Of a stretch of DNA of 31,117 bases, positions 7,680 through 31,117 are shown piece by piece; the stretch's first letter is position 1; each line of letters opens with the position of its first letter. The notes under the pieces were generated by a model, which was not told where the DNA came from, searched no databases, and saw only the letters and a program-made list of their open reading frames with translations. A program made the position numbers and the translations under genes. This DNA is from Armatimonadota bacterium. GTDB lineage: Bacteria > Armatimonadota > Armatimonadia > Armatimonadales > Armatimonadaceae. The stretch lies in the NCBI GenBank assembly GCA_043754515.1, contig JAYUUO010000197.1, forward strand, positions 1 to 31,117, read 5' to 3'.

Positions 7680-8558
7680 TCAAAACGAGTTCGCGTCCGT
7701 AGGGAACCGCCCTTCGCGCACATCGGACACGTGCTCTCGGAGCGAGTCTCCTAAAATCTTGCTCCCTTCTACGTACCGGCGCGTGTGCCGGTAAACGGGC
7801 CCCCCGGTTAATCCGAGGATGTCATGCAACACCTGAACCTGCCCGTCACAGCCGCCACCCGCCCCAATCCCGATGGTGAGGACAGGGACGGCTTCCGTGA
7901 CCCGCTTCGCGAGCGCGGCGGGGATCATTTCTAACACGATTCCCCACGCGCCGACATCTACGAGCGATTGCGCGTCGGCGAGCAAAGCGTCTGCAGCAGC
8001 GTCGCCCTTGCCCTGCACCTTAAAGCCGCCGAACCGATGCACGCTCTGCGGCGTGAGACCTAGATGCCCCATGACCGGCACCCCGACATCCACGAGCCGC
8101 CGGATAGTCTCCCGAATACTCGCGCCAGCCCCTTCGATCTTCACCGACTGTGCCCCGCCTTCGGCGATCAGGCGCATCCCGGCGCGGACGCCGTCCGCCG
8201 GGTCTGCCCCATATGAGCCGAACGGCAGATCCGCGACGAGTAGCGCGGCACGCCCCCCCCGTTCCGTATCGAAGGGTTCGTCCCCTCTTCCACCCGAGGC
8301 CCGCGTCGCCTGCCCCCGCGCCACCGCCCGAGTATGACGTACCATGTCGTCCAGCGTAACCGGTAAAGTGCTGTCATACCCGAGCGTCGTCATCCCGACC
8401 GAGTCGCCGACCAGAATCGAGTCGGTGCCGGACGCGTCGGCGATCTGGCCCTGGAACGCGTCGTAGGCGGTCACCATGACCACGACGCGCTTGCCCTTCC
8501 GGGCGGCGAGCATCGGCACGGTCACCGAGCGGGGGAGCAGAATATTAGTCTTCGTCAT
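7680..8558 (-). CDS. panB: 3-methyl-2-oxobutanoate hydroxymethyltransferase
   Basis: Motifs MVTAYD, ILVGDSVGM..LGY, VADLPFGSY, VKIEG, VMGHLGLTPQS and IGIGAG..CDGQVQVLHD. ATG at 8558 preferred over 8651. Confidence 0.97.
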   Translation of the reverse strand: MTKTNILLPRSVTVPMLAARKGKRVVVMVTAYDAFQGQIADASGTDSILVGDSVGMTTLGYDSTLPVTLDDMVRHTRAVARGQATRASGGRGDEPFDTERGGRAALLVADLPFGSYGADPADGVRAGMRLIAEGGAQSVKIEGAGASIRETIRRLVDVGVPVMGHLGLTPQSVHRFGGFKVQGKGDAAADALLADAQSLVDVGAWGIVLEMIPAALAKRVTEAVPVLTIGIGAGGGCDGQVQVLHDILGLTGGPVYRHTRRYVEGSKILGDSLREHVSDVREGRFPTDANSF

Positions 8559-8652
8559 CGCCGCTATTATAGCGCGTCCCGCCCCCTCCGATAAAGCCGC
8601 CGTTTTAGCGGACGCCGCGCCGGCGGCGATAGGGCTTGCGGAGAACATCACG

Positions 8653-9474
8653 ATGCCCGTAACAAAGATTCCCGCCGACCCGCTCGGCGACCGTATGAAG
8701 CGTGACTACGAGAACCGGACCCGGTATTACCTGCCGCGCCGCTCGTACACGCTGCTACGCATTGACGGCAAATCGTTCCACAACTACACGCACGGTTGCG
8801 AACGCCCATTCGACCTCGCTCTGATGGAAGACATGGATGCCGCCGCGCTCGCCCTGTGCGAGACGTGCGACAACGCCCGGCTCGCATTCACGCAGAGCGA
8901 CGAGATCAGCGTGCTCCTCACCGACTTCGGCAGCCAGCACAGCGAGGCATGGTTTGACGGCAACCTCCAGAAGATCACATCGGTCGCGGCGTCGGTCGCC
9001 ACGGCGCATTTCAACGCGGCGCGGGCGCGGCGCGGGATACCCGGCGACAACCCGGCCTACTTCGACTGCCGCGTTTGGACGATGCCGACGCAGGCCGAGG
9101 TAACCAACTATTTCCTCTGGCGGCAGAACGACGCGACGCGCAACAGTATCTCGATGACCGCGCGGGCGTACTTCCCGCATGAACGGGTGCAGGATAAAGG
9201 TCCGTCTGAATTGCAGGAGATGTTGTGGCGGGAGCACGCGGTCAACTGGGACGATAGCCCGATCGGGTTCAAGCGCGGTCGCGTCGTGGAGCGGGTCGCG
9301 GTCACCGGCGACCCGACGTTCGTGGACGGACGCACCGGCGAGACCCGCGTCGCCCCCGATGTGATGCGTCATCGCTGGCGCGTGAACACGGAGCCTCCGG
9401 TTTTCGCGCGGGTAAAGGATTGGTTGTCATCTCGTGTTCCGGCGCGGCCCGACCCTGACGAAGGTGCCGGGTAG
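8653..9474 (+). CDS. Thg1-like protein (tRNA(His) guanylyltransferase family, 3'-5' polymerase)
   Basis: Motifs LGDRMK.YE, RIDGKSFH.YT, RPFD, QSDEISVL, WFDGNLQKI.S..AS, FDCRV and YFLWRQ.DA.RNSI. GGAG precedes ATG 8653. Confidence 0.93.
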   Translation: MPVTKIPADPLGDRMKRDYENRTRYYLPRRSYTLLRIDGKSFHNYTHGCERPFDLALMEDMDAAALALCETCDNARLAFTQSDEISVLLTDFGSQHSEAWFDGNLQKITSVAASVATAHFNAARARRGIPGDNPAYFDCRVWTMPTQAEVTNYFLWRQNDATRNSISMTARAYFPHERVQDKGPSELQEMLWREHAVNWDDSPIGFKRGRVVERVAVTGDPTFVDGRTGETRVAPDVMRHRWRVNTEPPVFARVKDWLSSRVPARPDPDEGAG

Positions 9475-28106: not shown

Positions 28107-28820
28107 TTAAGACAGCGCGGTGCTACAGAGTGCCCGCAGTTTCGGCAGGTTGGTGACGATTACCGCGCGGCCGTCGCGGGCGATCAGGCGCATCGTCTTG
28201 AGGCGGGCGAGGCGGCGGTTGACCGACTCGCGCGACGTGTTGATGCGGGTCGCGATCTGCTCGTCGGTAAGGCGGGGCAACGCATAGGCTTTCGCCGCGT
28301 CGGGAGCCACCCCCGCGCACTGGTCGCACAGAAACGCCGCGAGACGCCCCAGCACGTCCAGCGCATTGGAGCGAACCGTCTGCTCCGAGTTCTCGCGTAG
28401 CCGCGCCGACAGGGCGCGGATGATGTTCCACGCCACCGCGGGATGCGCCTCCAAGAACTGCATCAGTTCGCGCCGCTCCAGGAGAAGTAGCTCGCACGCC
28501 GAGCCGGTCTCCGCGTCGGCGGAGCGCGGCAGATCGTCGAACAGGGCGAGTTCGCCGAAATGCTCCCCCGGACCGCGTTGCGCGATATGCACCGTTTCCA
28601 TCTCTTTGGTGACGCGCTGAATGAGCACCGTGCCGGACAGAACGATATACAGCGTCTGTCCGGGATCGCCCTCATGGAACAACGCCTCGCCCGCCCCGAA
28701 CTTGCGGCGGCGGCAACGCCCGGCGAGAAGTTTGAGGGATTCGGCGTCTAACCCGGAGAAGAGTTGTATGGCGCGCAGTTGTTCTTCCGGCGCGATGCGT
28801 ATCGGGGGTGTTTGTGTCAT
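28107..28820 (-). CDS. Crp/Fnr family transcriptional regulator
   Basis: cNMP-binding domain (LF.EGDPG..LYIVLSG.V, GPG.HFGELAL, PRSA.A) and HTH (T.EQIA..I.TSRESVNR.L). Confidence 0.95.
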   Translation of the reverse strand: MTQTPPIRIAPEEQLRAIQLFSGLDAESLKLLAGRCRRRKFGAGEALFHEGDPGQTLYIVLSGTVLIQRVTKEMETVHIAQRGPGEHFGELALFDDLPRSADAETGSACELLLLERRELMQFLEAHPAVAWNIIRALSARLRENSEQTVRSNALDVLGRLAAFLCDQCAGVAPDAAKAYALPRLTDEQIATRINTSRESVNRRLARLKTMRLIARDGRAVIVTNLPKLRALCSTALS

Positions 28821-28916
28821 TCGTTCGGTACCTTCCCCGCGATTGTATGTGCGGCAAGATTAGAATCCAGTATACCGGATTACCCGGCCTGAATTTGACG
28901 CCCTCTGTGCCGGGGT

Positions 28917-29032
28917 CAGGGCGATTGCATCACAGTTAGGTTGTTAACTCGACGGATGTTTGCGGGCATGGACGGTGAACCGTTCCCGCCCACATCGCTC
29001 TCAGGCCACCCGACCAGGATGCAATCGCCCTA
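28917..29032. mobile_element. MITE-like or internally deleted IS remnant with ISAs1-like terminal inverted repeats
   Basis: Perfect 14-bp inverted repeat AGGGCGATTGCATC (28918-28931) / GATGCAATCGCCCT (29018-29031) around 86 bp. No transposase and no clear target-site duplication. Confidence 0.55.
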
Positions 29033-29099
29033 CTGCGCGGCACGGGTACGAGTGCCCGATGGCGGATACCGGTGAGAAACGCATCGAGCCGACTATCCT

Positions 29100-29242
29100 G
29101 AGTGGCGGCGGTCTTCGCAACAGGCTACCAAACGCCGCCACCCGGTTCTGTATTCGGCTACGGTTCCCCGACAGCCTGGGAACGAACTCCCGTGGACTCC
29201 CCGTTCGCGCTCCGTCATGCCGTGACAGGACCGATTCCGGCG
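29100..29242 (-). ncRNA. Structured DGR spacer RNA 3' of the TR
   Basis: Consecutive hairpins on the minus strand: GGGAG-UUCG-UUCCC, GGCUG(U)CGG-GGAA-CCGUAGCC, and an 11-bp stem 29133-29143 / 29100-29110. Confidence 0.6.
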
Positions 29243-29390
29243 CGGGGGTGCTGGGAGAACGGCGCGGAACCCGTTGTTGTCGTTCCGGTTCGTGGGCGCG
29301 TTCCTGTTACGATTTGCGCAACGGAAGTTGTCCGCGTCGTTGTTGTTCCAGGAGCCGCCGCGCAACACGCGGCGATTCAGCCCGTTCCCG
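29243..29390 (-). repeat. DGR template repeat (TR) with IMH*
   Basis: Translates as [49 protein letters not shown], with 11 AAY codons between GGSW and GFR. 29243-29273 matches 31087-31117 at 29/31 nt. The 5' boundary is uncertain. Confidence 0.93.
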
Positions 29391-30473
29391 CGATAGTCTA
29401 TCATTCCCGCCGCCGGGGCGGGCGAATGGCGCGTCCCGAAAAAGCCGGAGCCGCAACCCGTAGGTGTCCGCATGTCGCGCGTGTCCCAGCCACGCGGCGA
29501 CACGCCGCCTGACTACCGACAGGGCGAGCCTCCCTTCGGCGAACCCCTTCGCCATCCCGCGCAGACGGCGGGCGAACCGGTGGCCGGAAGCGGGACGCAA
29601 CCGGCGATGCGTCGGGAACACGAAGTAGCCGAGGAAGTCGACGCCCAGCGTCACCGGGGCGACGAACTGCTTGCGCGGGTGGAGGCGCAGACGGAGCGTG
29701 GTTCCCAGAAACTCGCCGACGGCGCGGCGGATCTCGTGGAGCGTGGCTTTGTCGTCGCCGAGCACGATGAAATCGTCCACGTAGCGGATATAGCGCGGGC
29801 AACCGAGCGTTTCTTTCACGAAGTGGTCGAGGGCATCCAGGTAGACGTTGGCGAAAAATTGGCTGGTCTGATTGCCGAGGGGCAGGCCGCGACGCCGTTC
29901 GAGCGGCGTGAAGAGATTGTCGCCGGGAAACCAGTCGGCTACTTCCTGTTGCGGGTTTGAGCCGTCAATGATCGCGTCCATCAGCCATAGCGTGGGTGCG
30001 CACCCGATCTTCCGGCGTAACAACCCCTTGAGGATGGCGTGATCTATGCTGGCGAAGTAGAGGCGCACGTCGCCCTTGAAGAAGTAGTCCGCCCCGCGCA
30101 TGAACGCCGTCAGGCGATCCACCGCGGCGTGCGTGCCCTTCCCCGCGCGGCAGGCGTAGGAATCGAAGATGAAGCTGCGTTCGTAGGGCGGCTCGACTAC
30201 GTTGCAAAGGGCGTGATGGACGACGCGGTCACGGAACGGGGCGGCACTGATCAGGCGCGGCTTAGTGTCGCGGATCATGAAGCCGTGGTACGGGCCGGGC
30301 GCGTACGTCCGTTCGAGGAGTTCGCGCCGGAGGCAGAGCAGTTCGTCTTCCAGCCGGTGAAAGAAGCGGAGCGGGGCGGGGTCGAAGCGTTTGCCGCGCC
30401 GCGCCTTGTTCGCGGCGAGTAGCAGGTTCTCGAAAGAGCAGACGGATTCGTAGAGGTTTTTGAATCGCTTCAC
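29307..30473 (-). CDS. DGR reverse transcriptase
   Basis: Motifs K.RLISAAPFRDRVVHHAL, DSYACR.GKGTH.A, KGDV..YF.SIDH, GLPLGNQTSQFFANVYL (DGR-type SQ), Y.RYVDDF and GVDFLGY. No maturase or endonuclease domain. Confidence 0.96.
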   Translation of the reverse strand: MKRFKNLYESVCSFENLLLAANKARRGKRFDPAPLRFFHRLEDELLCLRRELLERTYAPGPYHGFMIRDTKPRLISAAPFRDRVVHHALCNVVEPPYERSFIFDSYACRAGKGTHAAVDRLTAFMRGADYFFKGDVRLYFASIDHAILKGLLRRKIGCAPTLWLMDAIIDGSNPQQEVADWFPGDNLFTPLERRRGLPLGNQTSQFFANVYLDALDHFVKETLGCPRYIRYVDDFIVLGDDKATLHEIRRAVGEFLGTTLRLRLHPRKQFVAPVTLGVDFLGYFVFPTHRRLRPASGHRFARRLRGMAKGFAEGRLALSVVRRRVAAWLGHARHADTYGLRLRLFRDAPFARPGGGNDRLSRERAESPRVARRLLEQQRRGQLPLRKS

Positions 30474-30928
30474 GCGGGGGCCGCCATTCCGGGGGGCGGG
30501 TCGGCGAGAGCGGCGGGTTCATGCGGGATGGCCCGCGCCCAGCCGCCGATCTGCGCGCCGACGTTCTGGAGGGACTCGGCGGCGAACGCGTACTGCGGGA
30601 CGGACAGGCAACGCAGGTCCTTCGACAGGCGGATCAGGTAGCGGAGCCGCTCCAGGCGGCGATTGGCGCGGCGGAGCAGTTCGCGCTTGTCGCGCGCATA
30701 GGACGCCTCGATCAGGAGTTCCAGGATTTCGAGCGCGTTCTCCTCGACACGCTGTCCGAGCGAGTAGCGGTGCGCCCTGGAAAAGTCGGCGGTACGCCCG
30801 AAGAGCCACACGATGAAGTCATACAGGTGCGTGACCACGGCAACTTCGCCCTGTCCGCGCACGGGCGGATGGGCGTGTACTGGCGGCACGTGGCTGTCAG
30901 ATGATGTCAAAAGAGTGCCTTCCTCCAT
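30470..30928 (-). CDS. avd: DGR accessory variability determinant (Avd, four-helix bundle)
   Basis: YD...WL......F.R.HRYSLGQR.....LEILE.LIEA...L..LRYLIRLSKDL..LS..QY.......VG.QIGGW. Its TGA overlaps the RT GTG start. Confidence 0.93.
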   Translation of the reverse strand: MEEGTLLTSSDSHVPPVHAHPPVRGQGEVAVVTHLYDFIVWLFGRTADFSRAHRYSLGQRVEENALEILELLIEASYARDKRELLRRANRRLERLRYLIRLSKDLRCLSVPQYAFAAESLQNVGAQIGGWARAIPHEPAALADPPPGMAAPA

Positions 30929-31034
30929 CTCGGATCATTCGTGATAATATATTCCATTTTCTAGTCTTTTTCTCGTTTTTACTGGCGAATCGCGACCGGA
31001 TCGGGTATAATAGACATAGTGCGAATAATTTTCG

Positions 31035-31049
31035 ACGCGCCAAGCGCGT
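31035..31049. other. Candidate DGR target-recognition hairpin downstream of the IMH
   Basis: ACGCGC-CAA-GCGCGT (6-bp stem, 3-nt loop), 34 nt past the target stop codon. Confidence 0.55.
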
Positions 31050-31083
31050 AGACAAAAGGATAAGAGGACAAAAGGGAATAGCG

Positions 31084-31117
31084 TTACGGGAGTCCTGGGA
31101 GAACGGCGCGGAACCCG
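31084..31117 (-). CDS. 3' end of the DGR target gene (end of VR + IMH), predicted CLec / FGE-sulfatase-type domain; partial
   Basis: Reads GFRAVLPGLP-TAA. 31095-31117 is identical to TR 29251-29273 (23 nt). Confidence 0.85.
   Translation of the reverse strand, partial: GFRAVLPGLP

What the first reader, a model, noticed from the sequence alone, without database searches (positions are those of the whole stretch)
29100..31117. Diversity-generating retroelement: target - avd - RT - TR
Seen: Avd translationally coupled to an SQ/YVDD reverse transcriptase, an AAY-rich TR, and a matching gene end with an IMH/IMH* pair (CCAGGACTCCCG vs CCAGCACCCCCG). The TR has 28 adenines between GGSW and GFR, giving a theoretical 4^28 (about 7e16) DNA variants. 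Known: DGRs mutate TR adenines during retrohoming, and RGGSW...R.A.R...GFR is the CLec/FGE-sulfatase C-terminus. Inference: an intact cellular (non-phage) DGR among housekeeping genes in a little-studied lineage, diversifying a ligand-binding protein, possibly with remote targets.
Basis: partly seen in the sequence, partly recalled or inferred. Interest (0 to 1): 0.9.

Follow-up and report, generated by a model that had tools for sequence, protein, structure and literature searches.

The report
Genuine DGR with cut-off target gene
This is a real diversity-generating retroelement (a reverse-transcriptase device that rewrites the tip of one protein) in an uncultured bacterium, and sample data show it has been active, but it is an ordinary member of a well-known kind.

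Summary
On the minus strand lie the last 31 nt of a variable repeat (the contig ends inside it), avd, a DGR-type reverse transcriptase and a 128-nt template repeat with 30 adenines. I add a 146-nt structured RNA just after the TR.

Contigs from the probable source samples carry at least four versions of the missing VR. They differ from the TR at 19 adenine places and 4 others, while the TR itself is invariant. So the element has been active.

The RT is 38% identical to the Bordetella phage BPP-1 enzyme. It falls in a well-supported clade with relatives from the same bacterial family and an Armatimonadota genome. Of 160 related loci, 94 show adenine-biased TR/VR pairs.

Not supported:
- Remote targets were not found in this assembly.
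- The body of the target gene is not in the assembly.
- "Non-phage" is shown only for the left 29 kb.

DGRs in Armatimonadetes are already listed by Roux et al. 2021.

In passing, VRs of this RT family are followed by tandem ~8-nt units and then a hairpin. This scan has already noted such repeats on other DNA.

Verdict: a new member of a known kind, of modest interest.

The parts
31087..31117 (-). 3' end of the variable repeat (VR) of the target gene, including the IMH-like boundary CCAGGACTCCCG (31087-31098). The rest of the VR and the gene lie beyond the contig end.
   Evidence: 29 of 31 bases match the TR. The frame reads GFRAVLPGLP. Sample unitigs overlap this end and continue through the VR.
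31084..31086 (-). Stop codon (TAA) of the target gene.
   Evidence: Read from the sequence.
31053..31078 (-). Three tandem pyrimidine-rich units of about 8 nt, just after the target stop codon.
   Evidence: Self-match peaks at lag 8 (0.57). The same kind of repeat follows 65 of 101 distinct VR flanks of relatives, against 1 of 100 TR flanks.
31035..31049 (-). GC-rich hairpin (6-bp stem, 3-nt loop) downstream of the VR. It is a candidate for the target-marking hairpin or cruciform.
   Evidence: Folding alone is not significant (z -1.39). The position matches hairpins found after 77 VRs of relatives.
30470..30928 (-). avd (accessory variability determinant). The start is uncertain, because the family match begins at residue 30.
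   Evidence: Pfam bAvd 5.3e-16. NCBIfam NF033474 scores 91.4 bits against a cut-off of 80.
29307..30473 (-). DGR reverse transcriptase. The GTG start overlaps the avd stop. The last ~45 codons of the open frame run through the TR in another frame and lie past the conserved domain.
   Evidence: RVT_1. PDB 8ub7_A at 6.2e-60. 38% identity to BPP-1 Brt, E 1e-68. Tree placement.
29244..29371 (-). Template repeat (TR): 128 nt, 30 adenines, with the IMH*-like end CCAGCACCCCCG (29244-29255).
   Evidence: It is invariant in the main sample contigs, while VR unitigs laid on it differ at adenines.
29098..29243 (-). Structured RNA directly 3' of the TR (three stem-loops). It is the counterpart of the BPP-1 Spacer, which supplies the priming site.
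   Evidence: Model R1 scores 128 bits here. This row was used to build R1, so it matches by construction. The same element lies right after the TR in 24 of 80 and 41 of 80 related loci. 32 of 34 pairs show compensatory changes. No Rfam family matches.

Best explanation
This is a diversity-generating retroelement with the layout target(VR) - avd - RT - TR - spacer RNA.

Proposed mechanism:
1. The avd-RT-TR-spacer region is transcribed.
2. The RT, with Avd, copies the TR RNA into cDNA, primed from the structured spacer RNA just 3' of the TR. It misincorporates opposite adenines.
3. The cDNA replaces the VR at the 3' end of the target gene.
4. This recodes up to 16 codons of an FGE-sulfatase-type C-type-lectin fold, a ligand-binding surface. 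That gives about 6.6e15 possible proteins.

Shown here: all the parts, their family membership, an invariant TR, and several adenine-only VR versions in the samples.

Inferred from the BPP-1 model system: priming from the spacer RNA, the role of Avd, and the homing step.

Not known: what the target protein is beyond its C-terminal domain. Relatives fuse that domain to TIR, esterase or Ig-like parts.
For: Parts and family scores:
- establish the parts and their scores.
- The PDB chain 8ub7_A aligns letter for letter like BPP-1 Brt.

Sample contigs:
- The main contigs cover 28800-30248 and 30219-31114 with 0 differences.
- Short unitigs of 152, 131 and 132 nt lie on TR 29244-29371 with 12-17 differences.
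- T>N on the plus strand (adenine in the TR sense) makes up 22 of 30 change classes in X1 and 21 of 22 in X3.
- There are 23 listed variable places: 19 at adenines and 4 elsewhere. Three of those four come from one 989-nt contig or one gapped unitig.
- In X3 and X4 the unitigs begin exactly 30 nt (k-1) before the window's end. That is what a bubble in the assembly graph at the VR would give.

Relatives:
- Adenine-biased TR/VR pairs occur in 38 of 80 metagenome loci and 56 of 80 genome loci, and in 74 of 80 viral loci.
- The nearest relatives L017, L097, L057 and L061 have the same gene order, including avd.
- The spacer RNA is conserved and covaries.
Against: - Only 31 nt of the VR are in the assembly, and the target ORF is missing.
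- The four runs are two near-identical pairs from one study. They may be the source of this very assembly, so they are not independent of it.
- They are contigs, not reads, so variant frequencies and rare variants are unknown.
- A related strain is present in the samples: a 732-nt contig with 8 differences in 72 nt of the RT gene. The VR versions may therefore belong to different strains, not one population.
- One non-adenine VR/TR difference (29321) is fixed in the main VR version.
- The hairpin after the VR has a 3-nt loop and is not significant on folding alone.
- No RNA data were examined.
Confidence: 0.93

Rival explanations
1. The DGR is carried by a prophage or other mobile element that begins to the right of the contig end, not by the core chromosome.
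For: - The right flank is unknown, because the contig ends at 31117.
- The DGR is absent at the syntenic site upstream of the conserved crp-like gene in same-genus genome G002. No RT or spacer RNA was found in G001-G003.
- The closest metagenome relative, L017, has a large serine recombinase next to its target gene.
- RT relatives are patchy: 3 of 41 related genomes, counting this one.
Against: - The 29 kb on the left hold biosynthetic, cell-envelope, transport and regulatory genes and no phage genes.
- Base composition is even across the window.
- Viral relatives of the RT reach at most 48% identity and phage records at most 45%. Cellular MAGs and metagenome contigs reach 50-67%.
- The RT tree largely follows phylum.
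- G001-G003 are only 82-88% complete.
Confidence: 0.12
2. The element is a fossil. The VR versions seen in the samples are old alleles of diverged strains, and the DGR no longer works.
For: - Contigs cannot date the variation.
- A related strain is in the samples.
- The genome holds an orphan VR-like gene end (C271) whose differences from this TR are mostly not at adenines. So such ends do decay in this lineage.
Against: - avd and RT are open and full length with intact motifs.
- TR, spacer RNA and IMH pair are all present.
- The DNA flanking the VR has 0 differences in the main contigs, while the VR has 12-17 differences per version, almost all at adenines. Ordinary divergence would not be confined to adenines or to 100 nt.
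Confidence: 0.05
3. It is not a DGR. On this reading it is a group II intron, retron or defence reverse transcriptase that happens to lie beside a repeat.
For: NCBIfam gives weak partial matches to the group II intron RT/maturase (106 bits, cut-off 300) and to Drt and retron models, all far below their cut-offs.
Against: - The best solved relative is the BPP-1 DGR RT at 6e-60, against 3e-15 for group II RTs.
- Avd passes its equivalog cut-off.
- Adenine-specific variation is present.
- 94 of 160 related loci carry adenine-biased TR/VR pairs.
Confidence: 0.01

Closest known systems
Bordetella phage BPP-1 DGR (mtd - avd - TR - brt), the archetype
   Same: - The RT is 38% identical over 341 residues.
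- Avd is present.
- The VR sits at the 3' end of the target gene.
- The TR and VR ends differ, as IMH and IMH* do.
- A GC-rich hairpin lies after the VR.
- A structured RNA lies directly 3' of the TR, where BPP-1 has its 140-nt Spacer with the priming adenosine (passages of bioRxiv 10.1101/2023.10.23.563531).
   Different: - The gene order here is target - avd - RT - TR - spacer, so the TR comes after the RT and the RT open frame reads through it.
- The context is cellular, not a phage tail-fibre gene.
- The target domain is of the FGE-sulfatase subtype.
- In BPP-1 the hairpin follows the stop codon directly. Here three ~8-nt units lie between them, and the loop is 3 nt, not GRNA (Guo et al. 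2011, PMC3240598, passage seen).
Cellular DGRs with FGE-type C-type-lectin targets (Roux et al. 2021 clade 5; Doré et al. 2024, PMC10907252)
   Same: - Roux et al. [quoted passage not shown] The relatives here are likewise cellular, and the holding runs are sediment metagenomes. I did not place this RT in their tree.
- The target carries an FGE/CLec C-terminus.
- Same-family relatives here fuse that domain to TIR. Doré et al. 2024 describe TIR and caspase-like domains in or beside DGR targets of conflict systems (passages).
- Armatimonadetes DGRs with a cellular label are listed in the Roux supplement.
   Different: - The target architecture of this particular element is unknown.
- No STAND NTPase or conflict-system neighbours are seen in the 29 kb available.
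Closest sequence relatives: metagenome contig L017, Armatimonadota MAG contig L097, and same-family genome G012
   Same: - RT identity is 63-67%, in one well-supported clade.
- The spacer RNA is the same.
- L017 and L097 have the same order, target - avd - RT - TR.
- Their TR/VR pairs have 24 of 24 and 15 of 19 mismatches at adenines.
   Different: - G012 places avd after the TR in one locus, and no Avd hit was found in the other.
- G012 C119 has two targets. Here only one target end is visible.

Membership tests
Diversity-generating retroelement (DGR) | Reverse transcriptase of the DGR clade, not of the group II intron, retron or defence RT clades. | tested here: met
   PDB 8ub7_A (same aligned letters as BPP-1 Brt) at 6.2e-60, against 3e-15 for the best group II RT. 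Starred clade with relatives that carry TR/VR pairs.
Diversity-generating retroelement (DGR) | RT motifs: SQ in the nucleotide-binding motif, and YxDD in the catalytic site. The motif definitions are recalled, not taken from a call. | tested here: met
   LGNQTSQ aligns with IGSLTSQ of the BPP-1 enzyme, and YVDD with YMDD.
Diversity-generating retroelement (DGR) | Near-repeat pair (TR/VR) whose differences fall at TR adenines. | tested here: met
   In the assembly only 31 nt of VR exist, 29 of them identical to the TR. In sample contigs, 19 adenine places and 4 others vary (p 7e-9).
Diversity-generating retroelement (DGR) | The TR itself is invariant. | tested here: met
   The main contigs of all four runs cover the TR with 0 differences. 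Contigs can hide rare variants.
Diversity-generating retroelement (DGR) | Accessory protein Avd (present in most but not all DGRs). | tested here: met
   NF033474 scores 91.4 bits against a cut-off of 80. Pfam bAvd. No PDB sequence hit at E 0.1.
Diversity-generating retroelement (DGR) | The VR lies in an open reading frame, usually at the C-terminus of a C-type-lectin or Ig fold. | tested here: inconclusive
   Ten in-frame codons and a stop are in the window. Eight more codons come from a loose end of sample contigs (read by eye). The TR translation matches the FGE-sulfatase C-terminus. The gene body is not in the assembly.
Diversity-generating retroelement (DGR) | IMH at the VR end and a non-identical IMH* at the TR end. 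| tested here: met
   The 12-mers at 31087-31098 and 29244-29255 differ at 2 places, and homology ends after them. The same VR-GGAC / TR-other asymmetry occurs in 26 of 106 relatives' pairs.
Diversity-generating retroelement (DGR) | GC-rich inverted repeat downstream of the VR (found in a minority of DGRs: 127 of 372 in Wu et al. 2018, passage seen). | tested here: inconclusive
   There is a perfect 6-bp stem with a 3-nt loop at 31035-31049. The fold z-score is -1.39. The loop is not the 4-nt GRNA of Guo et al. 2011.
Diversity-generating retroelement (DGR) | Structured RNA 3' of the TR that primes cDNA synthesis (Spacer). | tested here: met
   The element sits at 29098-29243. Its homologues lie directly after the TR in 65 of 160 related loci. 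90.4% of cells are paired, and 32 of 34 pairs have compensatory changes. Priming itself was not tested.
Diversity-generating retroelement (DGR) | Mutagenic retrohoming demonstrated experimentally. | not testable with these tools
   There is only indirect population evidence.

The most novel reading that the evidence does not exclude
Together with about 200 relatives examined here, this element suggests that DGR recipient sites carry a three-part mark, of which only the hairpin is described in the papers I could search.

1. A GGAC boundary in the VR. It is complementary to a GUCC(A) segment of the spacer RNA. The TR copy often spoils it (GCAC here).
2. Two to five tandem ~8-nt units right after the stop codon.
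3. A GC hairpin.

On this reading, the RNA part of the spacer-cDNA molecule pairs with the VR boundary better than with the TR. The repeats would bind a protein or stall replication. Together these would give retrohoming its direction.

This scan has already noted the repeats on other DNA. The pairing idea is mine and untested.
Probability: 0.25. Interest if true: 0.6.

Novelty: new member of a known kind. Interest (0 to 1): 0.3.

Why it matters
It adds one more working DGR, in a phylum (probably Armatimonadota) with very few studied genomes. It is also a clear case of an assembly breaking inside a hypervariable repeat: the target gene, the biologically interesting part, was lost from the genome bin for exactly that reason.

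Relatives in the same family diversify TIR-linked sensor-like proteins. The missing target may therefore belong to the putative antigen-sensor class.

The comparative by-products concern how DGRs choose their targets, which is still unsolved. They are the covarying spacer RNA, which has no Rfam family, the 8-nt repeats after VRs, and the GGAC asymmetry. They are not specific to this window.

Tried and rejected
**Looking for the rest of the target gene in the assembly**
- k-mers of the window's end found nothing.
- The 24-nt loose end from the sample contigs found nothing beyond one chance 14-mer.
- tblastn with the TR peptide and with the C-terminal 300 residues of the L017 target found six hits in five contigs. 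None lies near a contig end (nearest 4,609 nt).

**Remote targets**
- BLASTN of the TR against the genome found C271, C274 and C279 at 70-89% identity.
- Their mismatches are not adenine-biased. For C271, 16 fall at A and 24 at other bases.
- They lack the post-VR repeats. A genome-wide scan for that repeat pattern gave 10 loose matches, and only the window's follows a VR-like end.
- I reject them as cognate VRs. C271 (caspase-FGE) may be an orphan of another or a lost DGR.

**Other dead ends**
- Rfam search of 28700-31117 found no family.
- The PDB sequence search with Avd gave no hit.
- The PDB code 8UB7 was not found in any paper. I identified the chain by its identical alignment to BPP-1 Brt.
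- The joints 29362>29851 and 29365>29745 in the sample contigs have short sides (23 and 39 nt). I take them as other organisms or relatives and did not interpret them.
- An ungapped, anchored comparison of spacer-RNA complementarity to TR and VR ends was too noisy to use.
- A cruder energy comparison did not support the idea that VR ends generally pair better than TR ends. The TR was better in 24 of 34 pairs and the VR in 9.
Full report
**What is there**

The window is a whole contig (C197, 31,117 b) of a 313-contig, 5.13-Mb genome that is 92.7% complete. All parts of the element read on the minus strand, in this order:

| Part | Coordinates |
|---|---|
| Last 31 nt of a gene | 31087-31117 |
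| Stop codon | 31084-31086 |
| AT-rich spacer | 30929-31083 |
| avd | 30470-30928 |
| Reverse transcriptase | 29307-30473 |
| Template repeat (TR) | 29244-29371 |
| Conserved structured RNA | 29098-29243 |

- avd matches Pfam bAvd (5.3e-16). It passes the NCBIfam equivalog DivGenRetAVD (91.4 bits, cut-off 80).
- The RT matches RVT_1. Its GTG start overlaps the avd stop as GTGA. It carries LGNQTSQ and YVDD.
- The RT open frame runs on through the TR in another frame. Its last ~45 codons lie beyond the conserved domain, which ends near residue 340.

**The repeat**

- The TR has 30 adenines, with 11 AAC codons and 1 AAT codon.
- 16 codons can change, giving about 6.6e15 possible proteins.
- Translated, the TR matches the C-terminal end of the FGE-sulfatase domain (8.7e-6).
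- The gene end at 31087-31117 matches the TR at 29 of 31 bases. The two mismatches are in the last 12 nt, after which homology stops.
- The contig ends inside the VR. No other contig continues it.

**Evidence of activity**

- Four public runs hold the stretch as contigs. They form two near-identical pairs from one study, and they may be the source of this assembly.
- Laid on 28800-31117, the long contigs cover the TR, RT and avd with 0 differences.
- Short unitigs of 152, 131 and 132 nt lie on the TR with 12-17 differences each.
- In X3 and X4 these unitigs begin exactly 30 nt before the equivalent of the window's last base. They run 24 nt past the TR homology into sequence that, read by eye, continues the frame without a stop. 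This is what a bubble at a hypervariable VR looks like in an assembly graph, and it explains the contig break.
- Adenine changes in the TR sense make up 22 of 30 change classes in X1 and 21 of 22 in X3.
- There are 23 listed variable places in the TR. Nineteen are adenines (19 of the 24 adenines in the listable span) and 4 are other bases (of 44). Fisher p is 7e-9.
- Three of the four non-adenine places come only from a 989-nt contig of another organism or locus, or from one gapped unitig. The fourth is a fixed synonymous difference in the main VR version (it also differs, by another letter, in the 989-nt contig).
- At least four VR versions are seen. One is shared by both sample pairs, at about the genome's depth.
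- Caveats: these are contigs, they are not independent of the assembly, and a related strain is present. I cannot say the versions coexist in one clonal population.

**Family placement**

- The best solved relative is chain 8ub7_A (6.2e-60). Its alignment is letter for letter that of BPP-1 Brt. The window RT is 38% identical to Brt (E 1e-68).
- Group II intron RTs follow at 3e-15.
- Among related loci, 38 of 80 metagenome and 56 of 80 genome loci show a TR/VR pair with at least 70% of mismatches at adenines on the RT strand. Many of the rest are short contigs. Among viral loci, 74 of 80 show such a pair.
- A FastTree tree of 106 RTs was built from 107 loci picked plus the window; two loci with matches under 250 residues were dropped. 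It puts the window in a starred set of seven rows. That set includes both RTs of the same-family genome G012, metagenome contig L017 and an Armatimonadota MAG (L097).
- Phylum labels cluster on that tree.
- Viral relatives reach 48% identity at most and phage records 45%. Cellular contigs reach 50-67%.

**Context**

- The 29 kb to the left hold DeoC, a Met-zincin, PanB, NadA, glycosyltransferases, an ABC/Wzt exporter, a sigma factor, response regulators and a Crp-family regulator. There are no phage genes, and composition is even.
- The right side is unknown.
- The Crp-like neighbour and the genes beyond it are conserved in three same-genus genomes. None of the three shows the RT or the spacer RNA.
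- In G002 other genes occupy the site. The element is therefore accessory within the genus. Those genomes are only 82-88% complete.
The nearest named RT relative agrees. I did not test the taxonomy independently.

**The RNA after the TR**

- Six relatives align over about 150 nt directly 3' of the TR, with three stem-loops and an invariant unpaired AAUACA.
- A covariance model built from them finds the element right after the TR in 24 of 80 and 41 of 80 related loci, whether the TR lies before or after the RT gene.
- On the 41-row alignment, 90.4% of cells pair and 32 of 34 pairs show changes on both sides. The covariation score is 0.83, against at most 0.18 when partners are slid. That alignment is fitted to the model.
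- No Rfam family matches.
- By position this is the counterpart of the BPP-1 Spacer, which supplies the priming adenosine. Stem-loops just downstream of the TR were reported for 207 of 278 Avd-bearing DGRs (bioRxiv 10.1101/2023.10.23.563531, passages and section 10).
- The TR 3' ends pair with their own spacer linker better than with others' (-16.7 against -14.4 kcal/mol; 0 of 5000 permutations). That test does not control for base composition.

**Targets**

- The target of this element is unknown beyond its C-terminus.
- Relatives' targets are TIR-FGE (two in G012), an esterase-FGE protein, which I read by eye as a lipoprotein (L017), and a 1,429-residue Ig-like-FGE protein.
- Such effector-sensor fusions have been discussed as putative antigen sensors (PMC10907252, passages).
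- The genome's own FGE-domain paralogues are not cognate VRs. They include a caspase-FGE protein on C271.

**What is known**

- DGRs are catalogued in the tens of thousands.
- Armatimonadetes entries with a cellular label and the same target cluster appear in the supplement of Roux et al. 2021. Files 9 and 12 were not searched.
- My searches for DGRs with Armatimonadetes or Armatimonadota in full text gave one irrelevant paper and none.

**Seen in passing**

- In 65 of 101 distinct VR 3' flanks of relatives, the stop codon is followed by three or more CTTT- or TCTG-type units, spaced 7-8 nt apart. The controls give 1 of 100 TR flanks and 0 of 91 gene-internal stretches.
- Self-match peaks at lag 7-8 in cellular flanks and at lag 8 in viral flanks.
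- A GC hairpin usually follows. The window has three such units and then a hairpin.
- In 26 of 106 TR/VR pairs the VR reads GGAC at the boundary where the TR reads something else. The reverse holds in 3 pairs. The window follows this pattern.
- I did not find the repeats in Guo et al. 2011, Wu et al. 2018 or Vallota-Eastman et al. 2020 (term searches and passages only). Three full-text searches also found nothing.
- This scan has noted similar repeats before on other genomes.

**Verdict**

This is a working DGR of a known cellular clade, with its target gene lost to an assembly break. It is a new member of a known kind, of modest interest.

Noticed in passing
window 31035-31078 (-); relatives L017-L262: Right after the VR stop codon come tandem ~8-nt units (CCCTTTTR-type or TTCTG-type), then a GC hairpin. 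This holds for 65 of 101 distinct VR flanks, against 1 of 100 TR flanks and 0 of 91 internal controls. Self-match peaks at lag 7-8 in cellular flanks and at lag 8 in viral flanks. Second VRs that are not followed by avd have the units too (by eye), so the units mark the target, not the avd promoter.
   Followed up: partly
window 31087-31098 vs 29244-29255 (-); 106 TR/VR pairs of relatives: At the 3' boundary the VR reads GGAC where the TR reads GTAC, GCGC, GCAC or GGTC in 26 of 106 pairs. The reverse holds in 3. The spacer RNA linker carries GUCC(A), the complement of GGAC. In the window, the VR end is a better complement of that linker than the TR end is. That is not generally so.
   Followed up: partly
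G000:C271:5722-7734 (-) (L263:2723-4735): A 670-residue protein has a caspase (Peptidase_C14) domain, an FGE-sulfatase domain, and a C-terminus that looks diversified (Y, I, S, L and similar where the TR has Asn). It is 71% identical to this TR, with most mismatches not at adenines, and it lacks the post-VR repeats. It may be an orphan target of a lost or unassembled DGR.
   Followed up: partly
window 29265-29365 (sample contigs only): A 989-nt contig of depth about 7 in runs X1 and X2 matches the TR with 14 differences, several at non-adenines. It then jumps to 29745. It is probably the TR-RT region of a related element or strain in the same samples.
   Followed up: no
G012:C119 (L015) and G012:C142 (L016): A same-family genome has two DGRs with 63-67% identical RTs. 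One has two convergent targets (TIR-FGE and a 1,429-residue Ig-like-FGE protein) and avd placed after the TR. The other has a TIR-FGE target and no Avd hit in the 16 kb fetched.
   Followed up: partly
window 8476-9474 (+): An ORF matches the Thg1 family (tRNA-His guanylyltransferase, 1.6e-25), among the housekeeping genes left of the DGR.
   Followed up: no
L017:13-1749: The closest metagenome relative has a large serine recombinase directly upstream of its DGR target gene. This hints that some members of this DGR subclade travel on mobile elements.
   Followed up: no
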